IMG/VR virus record: IMGVR_UViG_3300033121_001944
Span: 25,384 to 89,383 of that record
DNA length: 64,000 nucleotides
Origin: a virus
Lineage: Duplodnaviria; Caudoviricetes
Strand: one strand, 5' to 3'
Shown here: piece by piece, positions 40,158-46,944 of the stretch
How positions within the stretch are numbered: position 1 is the first letter of the stretch
Layout: every line of letters begins with the position of its first letter
Program-made: the position numbers and the translations under genes
Notes under the pieces: model-generated
What the model saw: the letters and a program-made list of their open reading frames with translations, nothing else
What the model was told of the DNA's origin: nothing
Databases searched by the model: none

Positions 40158-40270
40158 TAGTGGAGATGGCGGGAATTGCACCCGCGTCCAAGCGACTGTG
40201 ACCTTCTTTACCTATGGGCGTGTTCGGCTTCCCTTGCGGGACCAGTCGTTGTCGAATCTTTTTCATCCCC
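40158..40270 (-). ncRNA. ssrA: miniature tmRNA-like RNA (tRNA-like domain with 44-nt insert)
   Basis: GGGGAUG/CAUCUCC acceptor with G3.U; GAUUCGAC; P2 CGACUG/CAGUCG; GGAC; T-arm GCGGG-UGCAAUU-CCCGC; 3' ACUA. Confidence 0.85.
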
Positions 40271-41211: not shown

Positions 41212-41610
41212 CTATGGGGTTATCCGTGAGGACCTCAAATACGAAATCGCTCGCTCCTTCCATTCCGCAAACCTCTGAGCTTGCTCCGCTTGCCTCATTT
41301 TCAGCGAAGTATAGCTCCCGGACGTCAAATAGTGACATGCTTCACCAAACCTTTCAACTAGTTCAGAAATCTTTTTAAAGTCTGGCGGAGTCTCACATTT
41401 AAACTCCACCTCTGAGTACTCCCTCCCGCGAAGGAAGGCGTATGCGAGTTGACTGTGGCGAGCCTCTTTACGGACGACCATAACGTGATGACCGCGAAGC
41501 TCACATTTCGTGGCGATATCTTTAATTTGATGAATAGCCTGTTTAATAATGCGGGCTTCGGCGGCGAGGCTTTTAATCTTTACTTTGAGGGCGAATTTCT
41601 TAGTTAGCAC
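41212..41610 (-). CDS. basic helical hypothetical protein
   Basis: AAGGAGG RBS with GTG start; KIKSLAAEARII...RKEARHSQLAYAFLRG. Confidence 0.7.
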   Translation of the reverse strand: MLTKKFALKVKIKSLAAEARIIKQAIHQIKDIATKCELRGHHVMVVRKEARHSQLAYAFLRGREYSEVEFKCETPPDFKKISELVERFGEACHYLTSGSYTSLKMRQAEQAQRFAEWKERAISYLRSSRITP

Positions 41611-41733
41611 GGCTAACCTCCTTAAATTAAGTTTAGAAAATGAAACAGAGACACAAAAACTTAAAGTAAGGTTGGTGGAGGTTTACCAGTTATTAATTCA
41701 CAAGAAATGGGTCATATATTATTCTACACCAAA

Positions 41734-41807
41734 TGCCTCTACAGAGAGTCGAACTCTGATAAGTGCGGATTGAAAGCCGACTGCTCAAACCGTTGAGCGT
41801 TAGAGGC
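41734..41807 (-). tRNA. tRNA-like element, nominal Glu(UUC), atypical
   Basis: Perfect 7-bp acceptor GCCUCUA/UAGAGGC; D GCUC/GAGC; T CAGAG-UUCGACU-CUCUG; weak anticodon stem with C-C mismatch; A at position 8. Confidence 0.65.
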
Positions 41808-42218
41808 GAATTCTTCTATGAGATGCCAAGCTTCAGCAAAAACTTCATTCTTCCCATCCCTACTAATGGATATTGCAAAAGATGAAGTTTGTACAAAGTC
41901 AGAAAAAGGCACTATATAAATAGGTAAATCTTTATGGACAACGGCGGCAAAATCGAAGTCTCCATTTGCATATTTTTCAAGACCACTCCTATACCTATTA
42001 TTGATCTGCCTTCCAGTTAAAGCTAGAAAAGCCCGCCTTGTCTTTGAAAAGTGAGCCGTCTTAACCTGCACTTTAATTAGTACGGACTTAATATCTAGGA
42101 CAAGGTCGTAAGATAAAAAACCGCCCACTGGCTGGAGAACATTATATCCCCTTTTTAAGGCTTCTGTAGTCACTATATACTCTGAAGTGATTCCAATTTG
42201 GGATGCGTTAGCGGTCAC
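41739..42218 (-). CDS. PD-(D/E)XK homing-type endonuclease
   Basis: GITSEYIV...GYNV...YDLV...KVQVKT; probable GTG start at 42218, since the track start at 42275 runs through the terminator. Confidence 0.75.
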   Translation of the reverse strand: MTANASQIGITSEYIVTTEALKRGYNVLQPVGGFLSYDLVLDIKSVLIKVQVKTAHFSKTRRAFLALTGRQINNRYRSGLEKYANGDFDFAAVVHKDLPIYIVPFSDFVQTSSFAISISRDGKNEVFAEAWHLIEEFASNAQRFEQSAFNPHLSEFDSL

Positions 42219-42230
42219 CTGAAAAAGTCC

Positions 42231-42263
42231 AAAAAAATCCCCCAGCTTAACGTACTGGGGGTT
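42231..42263 (-). terminator. intrinsic terminator after Ro60
   Basis: CCCCCAG/CUGGGGG stem followed by A-U7. Confidence 0.8.
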
Positions 42264-42301
42264 GGCTTCCGCCACGTCATTGAGAGGACTGCGACTACTC
42301 T

Positions 42302-43867
42302 CTATGAATTAAAGTTTGCAATCACTGAAGGAGCGGTTGCATCAAAACCAACAATATCCAGGGAGCCTGGGTCGGACGGGTCGGCAATACTAAAGCCCGT
42401 AGCGGTCATGCCGCAGACGATTAGCTTCGCATTAATACCCATCTTATCCCGATACTGTTTTAGTGCCTGAATGGGATGCATGGTTCCCGACCACGTTTCG
42501 TTATCCGTATAGACGATGAAACAATCGACGGGAATCTTCTTCGCCAGGGCGTCTTGCATTGGCAATGAACAGTCCGTACGCCCCCAAGGGGTATTCGCAA
42601 TAGTTTGCGTTACCGTTTGGAGATCCATTCCCTTCAGGAGGTTAATTGGCACCATCTTTCCATTAAAGCCAGCCGTATACGTAAATGGCTCCTTATTAAT
42701 AGATACCATTGCCATCACACCAGCAGCCTCTCCTGGCGTTACATTAGACTTAGCCACGCCTCCGCCGAACATGGAGCCCGAGCAGTCAATGCCTAGATAA
42801 AATCGCCTGTTAGTAGGCTTCACATATTGGAAACACTTATAGAACGCATCATTCAGCGCTGAAAGCACCTGTTGATCTACCGTCCACGAGTTCGATCCAA
42901 GGAATCCGCGACCTTGACCGTACGTCTTCGTTGCAAGCAAAACGCTAAACGGATGAATGTGAGCCTTTTGGAGAGCGACCTCGTCCGACAATACACTAAC
43001 CACTTTTCGGCTAGCTGCACTCATCGGGGTCAGTAGACCAACCTTGCTCATCTTACCCAGATTTTTAATCATAGCCGTCAAAGGCATCCGCTGTAGGAGG
43101 GCGTCCCAAACGGCAACATGGTTTAGATGCTCCGTAGGAATAACCTCCCGGACAAGCCGGTGCTGCTCAATCAGATCTACGACTCGGTTAATTGGCGCCG
43201 TCTTGATCTCTTCAACAACCTGCAAATATTGGTCAGCCTCGCTTTCAGTCGGCTCCCACTTATCTCGCTGGGCGACATACTTAGCCACATTATTAGTCGA
43301 TGAATCGACAAACTTAGGGCGAGTTAGTCGCAGAACGTCTTTTTGGGACCAGCTATTTCGGTTATTGTACTTAGTAACCTGATAAGCCAAATCACTAGCC
43401 GACTTGCTCGTATACCAACTTTTAATAAGCTTACGTGCCGTCTTGCTGCCTCCAGTCAGATTTTTGCGATTCTCAGTAAACTCCATTAGATGGGTACCAA
43501 TTCGCACAACCTTCAGGAAGGTCTCGCGTAACTCCGCTACAGTATAATCTATCGTCAGTAGTGATAGAGCAAAGATTGAGGGCGAAATCTTAGGAGCATC
43601 GTACGAAGCCCGCTCAATCTCCTTTAGGGTACGAGCAAGATCCGCCTTTGCACATCGTAGAACGACGTCCGCATTCTCTACGGTCATTTCTCGTTCTGAA
43701 CAGTAGTAAGTCCCACCAGCATTGCCGAGGATGAGGAAGCGGGTTAGCTGATCCCAATCTGAGATTTGGAAAACATAGCCGCCCGCATTATTCTTAACCT
43801 GCTTCTTGCCCTGCATGGGCTGAGACTGCGGGGTAGCCTTTTGGAAAACGTGCTTAGCGTAAGTCAT
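42302..43867 (-). CDS. rsr: Ro60/Rsr TROVE-domain RNA-binding protein
   Basis: KNNAGGYVF...LTRFLILG...GGTYY; YQVTKYNNRNSWSQKDVLRL; MPLTAMIKNLGKM; vWA DCSGSM; YTDNETW; DIVGFD. Confidence 0.96.
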   Translation of the reverse strand: MTYAKHVFQKATPQSQPMQGKKQVKNNAGGYVFQISDWDQLTRFLILGNAGGTYYCSEREMTVENADVVLRCAKADLARTLKEIERASYDAPKISPSIFALSLLTIDYTVAELRETFLKVVRIGTHLMEFTENRKNLTGGSKTARKLIKSWYTSKSASDLAYQVTKYNNRNSWSQKDVLRLTRPKFVDSSTNNVAKYVAQRDKWEPTESEADQYLQVVEEIKTAPINRVVDLIEQHRLVREVIPTEHLNHVAVWDALLQRMPLTAMIKNLGKMSKVGLLTPMSAASRKVVSVLSDEVALQKAHIHPFSVLLATKTYGQGRGFLGSNSWTVDQQVLSALNDAFYKCFQYVKPTNRRFYLGIDCSGSMFGGGVAKSNVTPGEAAGVMAMVSINKEPFTYTAGFNGKMVPINLLKGMDLQTVTQTIANTPWGRTDCSLPMQDALAKKIPVDCFIVYTDNETWSGTMHPIQALKQYRDKMGINAKLIVCGMTATGFSIADPSDPGSLDIVGFDATAPSVIANFNS

Positions 43868-43892
43868 TTTAAAATCCTTAAAGTCTTAAAAA

Positions 43893-43961
43893 TTAGGGCA
43901 AGTTAACATCAAAGGGTGTTTTTCAAAACCAATTTGATAACCCTCCGAAATTCAACCCTAA
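43893..43961 (-). ncRNA. Y-RNA-like element 1 (short, UUAUC loop)
   Basis: UUAGGG-UUGA...CUUG-CCCUAA terminal stem, 69 nt. Confidence 0.7.
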
Positions 43962-43968
43962 ATAAGGG

Positions 43969-44102
43969 AAACTGAGGCAAGGTGGCAGAATGCAGTTTTT
44001 TCGCGCTTTACCACTAAGCTAATTGACCTTACGATCAATACCAGATTCGAACTGGTGACTCGCACTTAACAGGTGAGAACGCACTCCAATCAACCTCAGT
44101 TT
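43969..44102 (-). ncRNA. Y-RNA-like element 2 (YrlA-like, permuted tRNA module with GUU loop hairpin)
   Basis: AAACUGAGG-UUGA...CUUG-CCUCAGUUU; T-arm ACCAG-UUCGAAU-CUGGU; 7-bp acceptor-like stem capped by GUAA; D-arm GCUU-AGUGGUA-AAGC. Confidence 0.85.
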
Positions 44103-44109
44103 GTATTAG

Positions 44110-44234
44110 TGGGGCAAGTTTGTATGCTGGTAACACGTCTTCACCCTTACCATTCGGGATACCGCCCTTTCGAGCGATGTTGGAATCGAACCAACTTTCA
44201 AAGATTTACAAGGTAACCCAACAAATCAACCCCA
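44110..44234 (-). ncRNA. Y-RNA-like element 3 (YrlA-like)
   Basis: UGGGG-UUGA-UUUG...CAAA-CUUG-CCCCA; T-arm GUUGG-UUCGAUU-CCAAC; acceptor-like AUCGCUC-GAAA-GGGCGGU; D-arm CCC-GAAUGGUAA-GGG. Confidence 0.85.
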
Positions 44235-44241
44235 TGTTTTG

Positions 44242-44356
44242 TGGAGGTAAATATACGATTCTAAGGTAGACATACTGACATACTCTCACCACTAAAGTAA
44301 GTGAGGTTCTGAGCTAAGCTCATGCGGTGCCCCCGCACTAAAATCTTCAACCTCCA
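44242..44356 (-). ncRNA. Y-RNA-like element 4 (degenerate three-hairpin module)
   Basis: UGGAGG-UUGA...UUUA-CCUCCA; hairpins UGCGG/CCGCA, UGAGC/GCUCA, CUCAC/GUGAG with AGUGG. Confidence 0.65.
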
Positions 44357-44358
44357 AG

Positions 44359-44428
44359 CAACGGGCGAAGGATTCGCACCTCCAAAACTCACGATATCAG
44401 TGAGCGTCGCGCTAATGACAGACCCGTT
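44359..44428 (-). tRNA. degenerate tRNA-like element (loop UGAUAUC)
   Basis: Acceptor AACGGGU/GCCCGUU; D GUC/GAC; CUCAC/GUGAG arm; T-arm GGAGG-UGCGAAU-CCUUC. Confidence 0.6.
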
Positions 44429-44435
44429 AAAAAAA

Positions 44436-44499
44436 TTAGAGGCAAGTAGTTGTCTGGACCGTTTCAATTGCAATGATAATCCAAACTATCAACCTCTAA
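44436..44499 (-). ncRNA. Y-RNA-like element 5 (short, UUAUC loop)
   Basis: UUAGAGG-UUGA-UAG...CUA-CUUG-CCUCUAA, 64 nt. Confidence 0.75.
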
Positions 44500-44500
44500 G

Positions 44501-44571
44501 TTCTGCCCCCTGGACTTGAACCAGGACCGTTCCCCATGAACAAGAGAAGTGCTACCTTACACCAAAGCAGA
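44501..44571 (-). tRNA. tRNA-like element with non-canonical anticodon loop (UGUUCAU)
   Basis: Acceptor UCUGCUU/GGGCAGA; D GUG-UAAGGUAG-CAC; T-arm CCUGG-UUCAAGU-CCAGG. Confidence 0.65.
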
Positions 44572-44575
44572 ATTC

Positions 44576-44603
44576 ATTATATGGTCAACTACCATATTTG
44601 CAA
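44576..44603 (-). promoter_or_regulatory. sigma70-like promoter for the RNA array, with internal palindrome
   Basis: TTGCAA-16 nt-TATAAT ending 5 nt before the first tRNA-like element; ATATGGT-N5-ACCATAT at 44579-44597. Confidence 0.7.
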
Positions 44604-44608
44604 GATGG

Positions 44609-44773
44609 TCAGCGGTCGCAATGACAGTTTTTATCGTCGCACTTTTTATCGGGCGAGCAAGTACAACCGTCTTTGCATGCGTCACATCCACACTTACAGT
44701 TTACAGGTCCGCAACCAAAAAGCAAGAGCGAGAAGAGGGAAAGGGCTGAAAAAATGAAAGATTTTCGGGTCAT
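44609..44773 (-). CDS. metallothionein-like lipoprotein (not in ORF track)
   Basis: MTRKSFIFSALSLFSLLLFGC-GPVNCKCGCDACKDGCTCSPDKKCDDKNCHCDR; ATGA overlap with the upstream stop. Confidence 0.7.
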   Translation of the reverse strand: MTRKSFIFSALSLFSLLLFGCGPVNCKCGCDACKDGCTCSPDKKCDDKNCHCDR

Positions 44774-45087
44774 GAGAAGTCTCCTTTATTTATAGATACA
44801 CCGTCCACGCGGTGAACGACAATAAACCTTTCCATGTCGGCATCGTTCACAGATGGGTCCCAATCTCTAGTTCGCCACCCCCCATAAGTCATGCCTTCTA
44901 TTAAATCCCATCCATTCGTTAGAAATTGGACGTTCGTCCTAGCCTCCTCATCGGTCAGCCCGTCCACAATTCGACATTTTTCGTAGATGAACCAGGATTC
45001 GAATTCACTTAGAATGTGAAAAGGGTTCATACGTCGGTGTCCCATAATACTTTCTCGGAAAATCGCGAAAATCCAATGAAGACCCAT
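44770..45087 (-). CDS. hypothetical protein
   Basis: 105 aa; real start probably internal. Confidence 0.5.
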   Translation of the reverse strand: MGLHWIFAIFRESIMGHRRMNPFHILSEFESWFIYEKCRIVDGLTDEEARTNVQFLTNGWDLIEGMTYGGWRTRDWDPSVNDADMERFIVVHRVDGVSINKGDFS

Positions 45088-45256
45088 TTTTAAAATAAAA
45101 TCTATACATTAAATATCCGTTCACACATTCTATTGAGTATAGAATCGGCTTCCCCTTCCATAGGGACACTACGTATTTGTAGCGGTCAGGAACTGGATCG
45201 TTTGTACCAAACATTAATCTCATTAGAAGCCACATTTTACCACCTTTTAGGGTCAA
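45005..45256 (-). CDS. hypothetical protein
   Basis: 83 aa, aromatic-rich. Confidence 0.5.
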   Translation of the reverse strand: MTLKGGKMWLLMRLMFGTNDPVPDRYKYVVSLWKGKPILYSIECVNGYLMYRFYFKNGSSLDFRDFPRKYYGTPTYEPFSHSK

Positions 45257-45488: not shown

Positions 45489-46084
45489 TTTGAACTCCTA
45501 AATGAGTGTTTATCAAACCCCTTCGCCTCTGCCATTGTTTTATCGTCAACGTGGGGAATTGGCGGCGGCAGCTTCTTATTCGCGAACCACATCATCAATT
45601 CTTGATAAGCTTTCTCCGGTGAAACCACCTTACCAAAACTGAAGTCTGCCAATTTTGGATTTTCATATGCCACCACTCTTTCGAGAATGCCTTTTTTAAT
45701 CGAGAATTCCTTTTCAGTCAAGAGGACAATAATTGGGGTGTCTGACTTGTAATAAGTGTTGAGCGGCACAAACCACTGCTTATCCTGATGAAGATGCCAC
45801 TTTCTTTTTGTTGCCTCAAAAAGGTGTCCCCAATCTTTTTTATCGTAAGAAACTCCATTCTCTGTTTTTGCAAAGTAATAGCGGTCGCCGCAAAACTCAA
45901 TTACGCCTAGCGGGCTCATGTCTATATATTTTTTATCCCATCTTGGCACATATTTGGAATGCCAATAAGGCTCTCTCCCGTTTTGCTTTAGTTGGGTAGT
46001 AACTCGCTCATATATAAGCGTTTTATCTATGCCCGTCTTTCTCACATAATCATAATAATCGGTAAAGTTAGATTGAATGATCAT
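45485..46084 (-). CDS. hypothetical phage protein
   Basis: MIIQSNFTDYYD...AYQEL...GFDKHSFR; coupled start. Confidence 0.65.
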   Translation of the reverse strand: MIIQSNFTDYYDYVRKTGIDKTLIYERVTTQLKQNGREPYWHSKYVPRWDKKYIDMSPLGVIEFCGDRYYFAKTENGVSYDKKDWGHLFEATKRKWHLHQDKQWFVPLNTYYKSDTPIIVLLTEKEFSIKKGILERVVAYENPKLADFSFGKVVSPEKAYQELMMWFANKKLPPPIPHVDDKTMAEAKGFDKHSFRSSK

Positions 46085-46944
46085 TAGAGTGCCATTTTCA
46101 GGTTAGAGTAAAGGTCAATCGGATTAATCAAGGATAGCCCGGACATCGTCCCACAATTCATTTCAACAAGCACCCACTCGCCAGCTTCTGTCTCGGCGAC
46201 GTCTAAAACGAAGAAGTTCGTATGAGCAGCAGCTATGACAGCGATTTGCTTGGCAAGGTTCGTGGCAGCGGCTGGCACACCTTCCGGTACGGTTTCAGCT
46301 ATAGCCCAATAGAACGAGCTGGCTAACAGTTTATCTCCCAGGAAGAAGAAACGGTACTCGTTAGACATGGGCATGCCATTAATACCCTCTTCGAGCTTTT
46401 TCAGCGGGACGTATCGGCGATAAAGAATGCCTTGTGTCCCAATCATGCTATCAGCATACAGGTCAGCCCCGATCTCAACAGCCCTCCTGCGATTTTCCGC
46501 AAACATACTATTGTTCCATTGGAATTTGCGGGAGTTAGTCCGCCCCTTGACGACGTAGGCGATATCGGGTGGAGCCTTACTGATGGTGGATTCTGTCCAG
46601 GTCTCAAAGGTGTAGGAGCTAAGCTCGTTGTAATAATGAAAGTCCGCAATCCACTTATGCTCAGCATAAGAATTAATAAGGCGTCCTCCCAACCTACGTA
46701 CATCTTTTTCTAGCTCGTCGTAGTATGGTAACGAACTATAGCGGGGAATCACTAGGCTGCCAGCTTCAATCTCCGTGCGGTACCTCACCGTGGGGAAATA
46801 AATAGAGGCGGCGTCGCACTCATCATCTTCAGCAAGACTGCTACGCAGTAAAATTTGAGCTTTCATATCTCTCCAAGGGCAGTTAAGACAACCTAAATGG
46901 CAGCAGGAGCCCCGACTAAGCAGAAACTCCCGACTTAGTGGCAT
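46084..46944 (-). CDS. ATP-grasp ligase (R2K/DUF4343-like) with N-terminal Cys motif
   Basis: VVKGRTNSRK; NEYRFFF; FFVLDVA...WVLVEMNCGTMSGL; N-terminal CCHLGCLNCPW. Confidence 0.7.
   Translation of the reverse strand: MPLSREFLLSRGSCCHLGCLNCPWRDMKAQILLRSSLAEDDECDAASIYFPTVRYRTEIEAGSLVIPRYSSLPYYDELEKDVRRLGGRLINSYAEHKWIADFHYYNELSSYTFETWTESTISKAPPDIAYVVKGRTNSRKFQWNNSMFAENRRRAVEIGADLYADSMIGTQGILYRRYVPLKKLEEGINGMPMSNEYRFFFLGDKLLASSFYWAIAETVPEGVPAAATNLAKQIAVIAAAHTNFFVLDVAETEAGEWVLVEMNCGTMSGLSLINPIDLYSNLKMAL

What the first reader, a model, noticed from the sequence alone, without database searches (positions are those of the whole stretch)
42302..44603. Phage Ro60 with an array of five divergent Y-like RNAs plus tRNA mimics: candidate multi-guide RNP system
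Seen: 700 nt upstream of a complete Ro60/TROVE gene hold five elements, the first four separated by only ~7 nt (43893-43961, 43969-44102, 44110-44234, 44242-44356, 44436-44499). Each is closed by a different but fully complementary terminal helix bracketing the same bulged core, GG-UUGA...CUUG-CC (UUUA in element 4). Stems covary while interiors differ. Two tRNA-like elements are interleaved, a promoter precedes the array and a terminator follows Ro60. Known: Ro60/Rsr binds Y RNAs through a bulged helix with CUUG on the 3' strand; bacterial Y RNAs tether Rsr to partners such as PNPase, and YrlA RNAs mimic tRNA; bacterial loci usually have one or two. Inference: one Ro scaffold with interchangeable RNA adaptors for RNA decay, repair or decoy functions during infection. 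I do not know of a described five-member, multi-class phage array.
Basis: partly seen in the sequence, partly recalled or inferred. Interest (0 to 1): 0.95.

Follow-up and report, generated by a model that had tools for sequence, protein, structure and literature searches.

The report
Phage Ro60 with five Y RNAs
An uncultured large phage has a gene for the RNA-binding ring protein Ro60 preceded, in one transcription unit, by five different small "Y RNA" partners and two tRNA-shaped spacers; such multi-RNA sets prove common beside phage Ro60 genes, although papers describe at most two or three.

Summary
On the minus strand, one sigma-70-like promoter (44603-44576) is followed by a degenerate tRNA-like element, Y5, a second tRNA-like cloverleaf, Y4, Y3, Y2, Y1, a canonical Ro60 gene (42302-43867) and an intrinsic terminator.

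All five Y elements share a Ro-binding bulged helix, G-UUGA...CUUG-C. This is a U-variant of the canonical G-CCGA...CUUG-C.
- A covariance model built only from distant phage Ro60 loci hits the 64-kb window twice, at Y1 and Y5. It also hits the short orthologues of Y4 in relatives.
- Rfam YrlA hits only Y2 and Y3, below its gathering score.

Six related phages (Ro60 76-94% identical) keep the array with compensatory changes. Between them, cargo is swapped, deleted or inserted at constant handles. The handle type is almost uniform within each genome and co-segregates with a mosaic block of Ro60 (residues 121-205) that covers known RNA-binding residues.

Five members is not unique. Among 80 other viral Ro60 loci, 20 have at least 3 model hits and 8 have at least 4, all on the Ro60 strand. 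This scan has also noted similar arrays on other DNA (138 notes, at least 126 genomes).

Verdict: a real Ro60/Y-RNA operon and a new variant of a known kind. Function is inferred.

The parts
44576..44603 (-). sigma-70-like promoter TTGCAA-16-TATAAT driving the array
   Evidence: 10 of 12 matches and the only minus-strand promoter-like site in 41500-45200. Conserved in relatives (alignment A1).
44500..44571 (-). Head tRNA-like element: Glu UUC anticodon by ARAGORN, with G at position 33. Probably a processing signal rather than a decoder.
   Evidence: ARAGORN call; no Rfam tRNA hit at E<=10. In relatives the acceptor, D and T arms are kept, but the anticodon arm changes or decays.
44436..44499 (-). 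Y5, a short Y RNA (64 nt): 7-bp terminal helix, UUGA/CUUG core, UUAUCA loop motif
   Evidence: z -3.3; compensatory G-C to A-U; U.G to C-G; R1 19.1 bits. Orthologues score 34.6-35.1 bits in L003/L007; the UUGA-type orthologues in L002/L004 score only 19.3 and 13.5 bits.
44359..44430 (-). Spacer tRNA-like cloverleaf with a non-canonical anticodon loop (UGAUAUC) and T loop (UGCGAAU)
   Evidence: MFE cloverleaf in the window, L004 and L003 with different stem sequences. The T stem and anticodon stem covary. Not called by ARAGORN or Rfam.
44242..44356 (-). Y4: a short-Y handle and upper stem carrying a roughly 55-60-nt, three-hairpin insert unique to this genome. The core pair is U-A (UUGA...UUUA).
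   Evidence: R1 7.2 bits across a 75-nt insert. Short orthologues score 27.8-49.4 bits with 3 of 6 terminal pairs compensatory. The insert was found only in this phage's own genome.
44110..44234 (-). Y3, a YrlA-like long Y RNA: handle, GUUACC motif, T arm, capped acceptor-like stem and D arm
   Evidence: Rfam YrlA 20 bits. L004 has the same handle with a different tRNA-like body (27.3 bits). L002 has only the handle stub.
43969..44102 (-). Y2, a YrlA-like long Y RNA and circularly permuted tRNA mimic: anticodon-like hairpin CUGUUAA, T arm UUCGAAU, acceptor stem capped by GUAA, D arm
   Evidence: Rfam YrlA 32.6 bits, E 2.5e-4. 12 of 34 pairs are compensatory in 6 orthologues. After rotation it aligns 90/116 with a tRNA-topology element of L092.
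43893..43961 (-). Y1, a short Y RNA (69 nt) with a GGGUUAUCA motif, 25 nt upstream of the Ro60 start codon
   Evidence: R1 39.1 bits, E 2e-6; fold z -3.9. Orthologues in L002 and L008 score 44.2 and 52.7 bits, with 4 compensatory pairs.
42302..43867 (-). Ro60/Rsr gene, 521 aa (TROVE + Ro60 vWA with a MIDAS DxSxS motif). The Xenopus K170/R174 equivalents, K166/R170, are kept; the H187 equivalent is R183.
   Evidence: (human Ro60 7.7e-115, Xenopus 3.2e-111, Deinococcus Rsr 4.3e-98).
42230..42261 (-). Intrinsic terminator (8-bp GC-rich stem plus a U7 run) after the Ro60 stop codon

Best explanation
This is a phage Ro60/Y-RNA operon. One promoter transcribes a precursor that holds, in order, a degenerate tRNA-like element, Y5, a second tRNA-like cloverleaf, Y4, Y3, Y2, Y1 and the Ro60 mRNA, ending at an intrinsic terminator.

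Inferred steps:
- Host tRNA-processing enzymes (RNase P and RNase Z) cut at the two tRNA-shaped elements. This releases Y5 and defines the 5' end of Y4.
- The A/U-rich 7-nt spacers are cut and trimmed back to the helices that Ro60 protects.
- Each of the five RNAs binds the outer face of the phage Ro60 ring through the same bulged helix (G-U8U9GA...CUUG-C, the local version of GGUCCGA...CUUG).
- The variable bodies give the particle different partners. Y1 and Y5 carry small UUAUC hairpins, Y2 and Y3 carry full tRNA mimics, and Y4 carries a three-hairpin insert.
- By analogy with Deinococcus, Salmonella and Thermus phage phiLo, those partners would be PNPase or other exoribonucleases, and tRNA-binding host factors for the tRNA mimics.

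What is shown here is the anatomy, the family membership of protein and RNAs, conservation with covariation, and linkage to Ro60. Processing, binding and partners are inferred.
For: Protein: canonical Ro60. The Y-RNA-binding residues K170/R174 of Xenopus align to the invariant K166/R170 (the role of these two residues is from memory).

RNAs:
- Five handle-bearing elements lie on the Ro60 strand.
- Model R1, built from 26 RNAs of distant phage Ro60 loci, finds only Y1 and Y5 in the 64-kb window. It finds the Y1, Y4 and Y5 orthologues in relatives at 13.5-52.7 bits: Y1 and Y4 27.8-52.7, Y5 13.5-35.1.
- Rfam YrlA finds only Y2 and Y3.

Family-level support:
- In 80 other viral Ro60 loci there are 131 R1 hits at E<=0.01, all on the Ro60 strand.
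- On 150 hits, 93.8% of cells are paired against 59.5% in shuffles and 34-46% in slid controls. The core pair is C-G 120, U-A 26, U.G 4 and never unpaired.

Orthologues: there are compensatory changes in Y5, Y2, Y4 and Y1.

Modularity: the Y3 body differs completely between the window and L004 on an identical handle, L002 keeps only the handle, and the window's Y4 has an insert.

Shared reader:
- The handle is UU at the two variable positions in all RNAs of the window, L002, L004 and L006, CC in L003/L007 and CU in L008; the fourth base varies in a few elements (UUGU, CCGC).
- This co-segregates with a Ro60 block, residues 121-205. That block is 52-58% identical between types and 92-98% within a type, while flanking parts are 82-100% identical.
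- The block covers the segment where phiLo Ro60 mutations weaken RNA binding (PMC12135203) and the H187 equivalent.

Transcription unit: promoter and terminator.

Precedents: Y RNAs are encoded next to rsr and cut from one precursor in M. smegmatis (PMC4201824). Phage phiLo Ro60 binds two upstream Y-like RNAs and host PNPase (PMC12135203).
Against: - There is no expression or binding data, and the host is unknown.
- Y2 and Y3 score below Rfam's gathering score for YrlA (32.6 and 20 against 69). Y4 scores only 7.2 bits with R1.
- Y3 and the tRNA-like elements fold no better than many shuffles (z -1.45 to -1.6).
- The handle differs from the consensus at its two best-known nucleotides, C8 and C9. 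C8U weakened binding about 3-fold in phiLo (PMC12135203), and C9 is described as critical in animals (PMC11277228).
- No PNPase partner can be named, and no RtcB is on the contig (the contig is about 57% complete).
- The co-segregation of handle type and protein block within the close family could be linkage from one recombination tract rather than selection.
Confidence: 0.8

Rival explanations
1. The array is mainly a cis-acting leader of the Ro60 mRNA. Ro60 binds the repeated handles in its own 5' UTR, Y1 ending 25 nt before the start codon, to autoregulate translation or stability. The elements are not released as trans-acting RNAs.
For: No promoter-like site lies between the array and the gene, so the array is physically the 5' leader. 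Y1 abuts the ribosome-binding site.
Against: - In many other phages the same RNAs lie downstream of Ro60 or over 1 kb away (L039, L046, L012, L063).
- tRNA-shaped elements flank Y5 as expected for excision.
- Bacterial Y RNAs from the same arrangement accumulate as discrete species (PMC4201824).
- Autoregulation could still coexist with release.
Confidence: 0.08
2. The main role of the RNAs is as tRNA-shaped decoys or sponges for host tRNA-targeting defence nucleases or tRNA-binding factors. Ro60 acts chiefly as their stabilising chaperone, not as the effector.
For: - Y2 and Y3 carry complete tRNA-like bodies, including an anticodon-like loop CUGUUAA.
- The same neighbourhood holds further non-standard tRNA-shaped RNAs: the head and spacer elements, a tRNA at 41734-41807 and a 113-nt mini-tmRNA at 40158-40270.
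- Cargo turns over quickly between close relatives, as expected in an arms race.
Against: - Three of the five RNAs have no full tRNA body.
- The anticodon-like loops are not conserved among orthologues.
- No defence target is known, and nothing here tests it.
Confidence: 0.15
3. The region is a decaying phage tRNA gene cluster. The shared motifs are remnants or chance, unrelated to Ro60.
For: Phage Ro60 genes often sit beside tRNA clusters (Sixama, Beuffert). Two elements are tRNA-shaped, and Y2 gives a weak tRNA hit (25.8 bits).
Against: - The handle is not a tRNA feature.
- It recurs beside Ro60 in 62 of 80 unrelated viral loci, only on the Ro60 strand.
- It covaries as a helix.
- It is maintained in all relatives while the bodies change.
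Confidence: 0.02

Closest known systems
Bacterial Rsr (Ro60) with YrlA/YrlB or Yrn1/Yrn2 (Salmonella, M. smegmatis, D. radiodurans; Chen et al. 2014, PMC4201824; Rfam RF02553)
   Same: - Canonical Ro60 protein.
- RNAs encoded next to the gene on the same strand and made from one precursor.
- A long tRNA-mimicking Y RNA plus short hairpin Y RNAs.
- A Ro-binding helix near the paired 5'/3' ends. Relatives L003/L007 carry GCCGAAG, which fits the published GNCGAAN0-1G motif.
   Different: - Five RNAs rather than two, plus two tRNA-shaped spacers.
- The handle has U8U9 in place of C8C9.
- Y2 and Y3 carry an extra anticodon-like hairpin and score below the Rfam gathering score.
- There is no rtcBA repair operon nearby.
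Thermus phage phiLo Ro60 with Yrl1/Yrl2 (NAR 2025, PMC12135203); mycobacteriophage YrlA (22 phages in Chen et al. 2014)
   Same: - Phage-encoded Ro60 with Y-like RNAs directly upstream.
- A stem-bulge-stem with a CGAA-type motif.
- Binding to Ro60 and to host PNPase has been shown experimentally for phiLo.
   Different: - phiLo Ro60 is a very distant homologue (E 5e-11 to a profile of this family) with two RNAs.
- Here a near-animal-like Ro60 (E 1e-111 to Xenopus) has five RNAs of three body types and a re-coded handle.
- Nothing has been tested experimentally here.
Animal Y RNAs and nematode stem-bulge RNAs (Rfam RF00019, RF01656)
   Same: - Short Y RNAs of phage Ro60 loci share the layout: terminal stem, CCGA, upper stem ending GG, UUAUC loop motif, pyrimidine tract, upper stem, CUUG, terminal stem.
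- Several hit the nematode sbRNA family near or at its gathering score (38.1 against 38).
- Y1 and Y5 of the window carry GGGUUAUCA and GGAUUAUCA.
   Different: - The window's own elements give no hit to RF00019 or RF01656.
- They are bacterial-type transcripts made from an operon, not Pol III genes.
Arrays of 'handle' RNAs beside divergent Ro60-like (DUF2828-type) phage proteins, noted earlier in this scan
   Same: A tandem set of 3-8 small RNAs with one constant handle and varied, partly tRNA-like bodies, next to a Ro60-fold gene in phages.
   Different: Those notes concern very divergent Ro60-like proteins and non-canonical handles. I did not test them. Here both the protein and the handle are canonical Ro60/Y RNA.

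Membership tests
Ro60/TROVE protein (Pfam PF05731 + PF25045) | TROVE (HEAT-repeat ring) domain plus Ro60-type vWA domain above the curated cut-offs | tested here: met
   TROVE 126.6 bits (cut-off 23) and vWA_Ro60 201 bits (cut-off 27.7). Full-length matches to human, Xenopus and Deinococcus Ro60 structures.
Ro60/TROVE protein (Pfam PF05731 + PF25045) | MIDAS motif DxSxS in the vWA domain, and the basic residues used for Y RNA binding (Xenopus K170/R174; their role is from memory) | tested here: met
   D361, S363, S365, K166 and R170 are invariant in alignment A2. Positions were mapped through the 1yvp alignment. The H187 equivalent is R183 in this phage.
Y RNA (functional class) | 5' and 3' ends pair into a stem that holds the conserved bulged Ro-binding helix (GGUCCGA / CUUG) | tested here: met
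   All five elements have the helix in the right geometry but with U8U9. The first position pairs with the last base of the 3' motif as U.G, or as U-A in Y4. This matches the family-wide C-G/U-A/U.G covariation.
Y RNA (functional class) | Encoded close to the Ro60 gene on the same strand (prokaryotic Y RNAs) | tested here: met
   The elements lie 25-632 nt upstream on the same strand, within one promoter-to-terminator unit.
Y RNA (functional class) | Bound by Ro60 and stabilised by it in vivo | not testable with these tools
   Requires RIP, EMSA or Northern blots. The indirect support is the genome-wide handle switch that co-segregates with the Ro60 block at residues 121-205.
YrlA (Rfam RF02553) | Score at or above the gathering score (69 bits) | tested here: not met
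   Y2 scores 32.6 bits (E 2.5e-4) and Y3 20.0 bits (E 1.1). Phage YrlA-like RNAs in other loci are also below the threshold (38-45.6 bits in L063).
YrlA (Rfam RF02553) | tRNA-like module (T arm, acceptor-like stem, D arm) enclosed by the Ro-binding stem | tested here: met
   The alignment to the model shows the T arm (UUCGAAU loop), a closed acceptor-like stem and the D arm in Y2 and Y3. These stems covary in 6 orthologues.
YrlA (Rfam RF02553) | GNCGAAN0-1G motif near the 5' end (Chen et al. 2014) | tested here: not met
   The window has GUUGAU or GUUGAA, with U in place of the C. Relatives L003/L007 have GCCGAAG (Y4) and GCCGACAG (Y2). The distant phage consensus is GGGCCGAAG.
Phage short-Y family defined here (model R1) | Significant match to a model built without this phage or its close relatives | tested here: met
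   Y1 39.1 bits and Y5 19.1 bits, the only hits in the window. Y4 scores 7.2 bits in the window, but its short orthologues score 27.8-49.4 bits.
tRNA (RF00005 / ARAGORN) for the two spacer elements | Cloverleaf with a canonical anticodon loop (U33) and T loop, detected by tRNA finders | tested here: inconclusive
   Head element: ARAGORN calls Glu(UUC), but it has G33 and no Rfam hit. Spacer element: no finder calls it, though it gives an MFE cloverleaf conserved with different stems. Both are best described as tRNA-shaped, not as decoding tRNAs.

The most novel reading that the evidence does not exclude
Phage Ro60/Y-RNA systems form modular, re-codable RNP toolkits. In this lineage, the two most conserved handle nucleotides (C8C9 to U8U9) changed in every Y RNA of the genome, together with a swapped RNA-binding block of Ro60 that includes H187 to R. 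This would make a private protein-RNA pair insulated from host Rsr/Y RNAs. The cargo positions accept, lose and exchange tRNA-derived modules. In relatives the same module occurs in both circular permutations: ends at the Ro helix (Y topology) or ends at the acceptor stem (tRNA topology).
Probability: 0.3. Interest if true: 0.75.

Novelty: new variant of a known kind. Interest (0 to 1): 0.6.

Why it matters
What Y RNAs do, and why one Ro60 needs several of them, is still open more than 40 years after their discovery.

This locus and its relatives offer a natural experiment. One canonical Ro60 has five partners of three body types. Close relatives differ by clean cargo swaps, one cargo deletion and one insertion. 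The handle is re-coded in step with the protein's RNA-binding segment. These differences give direct, cheap tests of handle specificity and of what each body recruits.

The survey also shows that multi-Y arrays punctuated by tRNAs are the usual state beside phage Ro60 genes:
- 62 of 80 loci have short-Y hits, and 20 have at least 3.
- Public phage records that I checked annotate none of these RNAs.
- The short form is not in Rfam, except through a borderline match to nematode sbRNAs.

That points to an under-described, widespread class of phage ncRNAs that may remodel host RNA decay or tRNA biology.

Tried and rejected
- DNA similarity of the array to 50,697 phage records gave no match.
- Single-protein locus search in IMG/VR found no relative. 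An alignment query was needed.
- A pattern from the Y5 loop, searched in metagenome contigs, gave one hit (L089). On reading it is a chance match with no array. The same pattern in viral contigs gave none.
- Rfam Y_RNA (RF00019) and sbRNA families give no hit in the window region.
- I tested the idea of a strict residue-nucleotide code, His at the H187 equivalent with C9 and Lys/Arg with U9.
  - In the first sample, 5 of 6 independent contrasts went the same way and none went the opposite way (p = 0.06).
  - A second sample brought four genomes with Lys and C9 handles (L141, L154, L164, L168), besides L061 (Arg/C9) and L024 (His/U9).
  - It is therefore an enrichment, not a code.
- The within-family co-segregation of handle and Ro60 block may reflect one recombination tract. 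I could not exclude this.
- The MAFFT alignment of the spacer tRNA-like element (A5) is out of register between the two sequence types, so I did not count pairs on it. Single-sequence folds were used instead.
- The host could not be inferred. Capsid-region proteins have no PHROG or phage-database match, and the polymerase is at most 31% identical to any cultured phage.
- RtcB was not found on the contig.
- The Y4 insert has no copy elsewhere in the loci or in IMG/VR.
Full report
**Context.** The window is part of an 89-kb IMG/VR virus contig, about 57% complete. It carries tail, DnaE-type polymerase and helicase genes and has no close cultured relative. All genes around the finding are on the minus strand.

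**Observation.** Reading the minus strand from 44620 down, the order is:
- a promoter TTGCAA-16-TATAAT at 44603-44576, the only minus-strand site of that quality in 41500-45200;
- a tRNA-shaped element at 44571-44500, called Glu(UUC) by ARAGORN, but with G33 and no Rfam tRNA hit;
- Y5 (44499-44436);
- a second tRNA-shaped element at about 44430-44359, which folds as a cloverleaf by MFE;
- Y4 (44356-44242), Y3 (44234-44110), Y2 (44102-43969) and Y1 (43961-43893), separated by 7-nt spacers;
- a Shine-Dalgarno sequence and the Ro60 ORF (43867-42302);
- a GC-rich hairpin plus U7 terminator (42261-42230).

Their terminal helices (7, 6, 5, 9 and 6 bp) all differ. Each brackets UUGA...CUUG, or UUUA in Y4.

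**Is it more than chance?**
- The strict motif occurs 7 times in 128 kb of both strands, against 2.3 in shuffles, and four of those are in this 610-nt stretch.
- I built a covariance model (R1) from 26 short RNAs next to Ro60 genes of distant phages (Ro60 at most 49% identical). None came from this phage or its close relatives. In the whole window it has two hits at E<=10, Y1 (39.1 bits) and Y5 (19.1 bits). With filters off it also spans Y4 exactly, bridging a 75-nt insert (7.2 bits).
- Of 4227 Rfam families, YrlA matches only Y2 (32.6 bits, E 2.5e-4) and Y3 (20 bits). The alignments show the T arm, closed acceptor-like stem and D arm. Both scores are below the gathering score of 69, so by Rfam's criterion they are YrlA-like, not members.

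**The protein.** The 521-aa product is a canonical Ro60:
- TROVE 2e-36 and Ro60-vWA 1.6e-59.
- E 1e-98 to 1e-115 to Deinococcus Rsr, Xenopus Ro60 and human Ro60.
- The MIDAS DxSxS motif and the equivalents of Xenopus K170/R174 (K166/R170) are invariant in its family.

**Relatives.** The big protein collection holds six close homologues, 94-76% identical. Their contigs are syntenic: R2K ATP-grasp upstream, PD-(D/E)XK downstream. The upstream regions align and show the following array contents:
- L002: Y5, tRNA-like, short Y4, a Y3 reduced to its bare handle, Y2, Y1.
- L004: Y5, tRNA-like, short Y4, Y3, Y2.
- L003 and L007: Y5, tRNA-like, short Y4, Y2.
- L008: a TnpB-like gene, then a short Y2-position element and Y1.

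R1 scores the orthologues at 13.5-52.7 bits: Y1 and Y4 27.8-52.7, Y5 13.5-35.1. RNAalifold finds compensatory pairs in every set:
- Y2: 12 of 34 pairs, in the terminal stem, upper stem, T arm, acceptor-like stem and D arm.
- Y5: 1 pair, plus U.G to C-G.
- Short Y4: 3 of 6 terminal pairs.
- Y1: 4 pairs.

The samples are small, about three independent lineages.

**Modularity.** The handle stays while the body changes.
- The window's Y3 and L004's Y3 have identical handles but bodies that do not align, each tRNA-like.
- L002 has lost the body precisely between UUGA and CUUG.
- The window's Y4 equals the short Y4 of relatives plus a roughly 55-60-nt, three-hairpin insert found nowhere else.

This is direct support for 'one scaffold, exchangeable adaptors'.

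**One reader for all five.**
- The handle type is almost uniform within each genome and differs between genomes. The two variable positions read UU in the window, L002, L004 and L006, CC in L003 and L007, and CU in L008; the fourth base varies in a few elements (UUGU, CCGC).
- Ro60 is a mosaic. Residues 121-205 are 52-58% identical between the UUGA and CCGA types and 92-98% identical within a type. Flanking segments are 82-100% identical. A second, unrelated mosaic block lies at 361-440.
- The 121-205 block holds K166/R170, the segment aligned to the phiLo Ro60 residues whose mutation weakens RNA binding (K141, R163, R169, R173; PMC12135203), and the equivalent of Xenopus H187, which is R183 here.
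- A review states that C9 of GGUCCGA is critical and that H187S lacks Y3 binding (PMC11277228). In phiLo, C8U lowers affinity about 3-fold (PMC12135203).

So a concerted change of C8C9 to UU in every RNA, together with a changed binding block, is what a shared and co-adapted reader predicts. A single recombination tract covering the array and the 5' part of the gene cannot be excluded.

Across about 100 further genomes, U9 handles are rare. Among them 7 of 8 genomes (4 of 5 lineages) have Lys or Arg at the H187 equivalent, against 5 of about 95 C9 genomes. There are exceptions both ways, so this is an enrichment, not a code.

**How unusual is five?** Not very.
- In 80 other viral Ro60 loci, R1 gives 131 hits at E<=0.01, all on the Ro60 strand. 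Per locus the counts are 0:18, 1:23, 2:19, 3:12, 4:6, 5:2. These are underestimates, because long forms and variant handles are missed.
- L063 has 5-6 short forms plus three YrlA-like RNAs and tRNAs.
- The cultured phages Catera and Sixama have 2 and 3 hits. Their records annotate none of them.
- On 150 hits the helices covary strongly: 93.8% of cells are paired against 59.5% in shuffles. The core pair is C-G 120, U-A 26, U.G 4. The alignment was fitted to the model, and the terminal stem was a selection criterion for the seed. The upper stem was not.

**Literature and earlier scan notes.** The papers I could search describe:
- YrlA in 22 phages and two Y RNAs per studied species (PMC4201824);
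- two RNAs for phage phiLo (PMC12135203);
- three candidate RNAs for a Listeria phage (PMC12282133).

I found no description of arrays like this one. This scan has noted similar arrays on other DNA (138 notes in at least 126 genomes). Those shown concern divergent Ro60-like proteins, and I did not test them.

**Mechanism (inferred).**
- tRNA-shaped elements flank Y5 and precede Y4. In more distant relatives, bona fide tRNAs head the arrays (L091, L094). RNase P/Z punctuation is therefore the natural route to discrete ends.
- The 7-nt spacers would need another endonuclease, plus trimming limited by bound Ro60.
- By analogy with Deinococcus, Salmonella and phiLo, the bodies would tether or gate Ro60 with exoribonucleases such as PNPase, and with tRNA-binding factors.
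- 'Guide' is not supported.
- Autoregulation through the leader and a decoy role for the tRNA mimics are compatible additions (see the rival explanations).

**Verdict.** This is a real, conserved Ro60/Y-RNA operon and a new variant of a known kind. Its value lies less in the number five than in three things: the natural cargo swaps, the re-coded handle paired with a swapped Ro60 block, and the evidence that multi-Y arrays are a general, barely described feature of phage Ro60 loci.

Noticed in passing
L091:1383-1632, L092:2143-2410, L012:2185-2322 (upstream of Ro60, + strand): In more distant relatives the long tRNA-like Y module occurs in tRNA topology. The ends lie in a 6-7-bp acceptor stem, and the Ro helix is capped by a 3-5-nt loop (...CUUG-UC-CAC-GA-CCGA...) on an extra arm. 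Rfam tRNA hits them as 125-129-nt tRNAs with an insert (35.5-51.1 bits). After rotation at that loop, L092's copy aligns with the window's Y2 over 90/116 positions. The window's Y2/Y3 and these elements are therefore circular permutations of one design.
   Followed up: partly
L047:2214-2287, L013:1942-2012, L091:1303-1370, L049:2203-2269: Short Y RNAs beside phage Ro60 genes hit the nematode stem-bulge RNA family RF01656 at or just below its gathering score (38.1, 37.6, 34.0 and 32.4 against 38). They share the GGUUAUC loop motif and pyrimidine tract of animal Y RNAs. The short phage form has no Rfam family of its own.
   Followed up: partly
window 40158-40270 (-): A 113-nt mini-tmRNA-like RNA: the tRNA-like domain of tmRNA with only about 44 nt between the P2 strands. 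It scores 51.9 bits in Rfam tmRNA (gathering score 47). It is conserved at the same place in relatives (L008 57.8 bits, L002 39.8, L003 35.2).
   Followed up: partly
window 41734-41807 (-): The only Rfam-grade tRNA on the contig (44 bits) overlaps the last ~69 nt of the PD-(D/E)XK ORF (41739-42275). The same overlap is present in relatives. ARAGORN does not call it in the window, and in relatives it calls odd anticodon loops.
   Followed up: no
L004:1989-3152, L008:168-1115, L093:1289-2425: TnpB/Cas12f-like (OrfB_IS605) genes sit immediately upstream of the array or of Ro60 in three relatives. In L008 and L093 most of the array is missing next to them. This may reflect a preferred insertion site.
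   Followed up: no
window 44609-44773 (-): A 54-aa ORF with a signal or lipobox-like N-terminus and a Cys-rich tail ends just upstream of the array promoter. Its coding sequence is conserved in L002, L003 and L007 (alignment A1). It has no Pfam hit.
   Followed up: no
window 42302-43867 (-), residues 361-440 of Ro60: A second mosaic block lies in the vWA domain. L007 matches L004 (100%) and L003 matches the window (88-98%), but the two types are only 52-65% identical to each other. This block is independent of the handle type.
   Followed up: no
L072:801-916: A wcaG RNA motif (Rfam RF01761, 56.2 bits, above the gathering score of 42) lies directly after two short Y RNAs (638-702, 711-797) in another phage Ro60 locus.
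   Followed up: no
window 46084-46944 (-) and the same position in L002, L003, L004, L007, L091, L092: An R2K-clade ATP-grasp gene is kept upstream of the Y array/Ro60 across the whole family, down to 53% Ro60 identity. Its relation to Ro60 is unknown.
   Followed up: no
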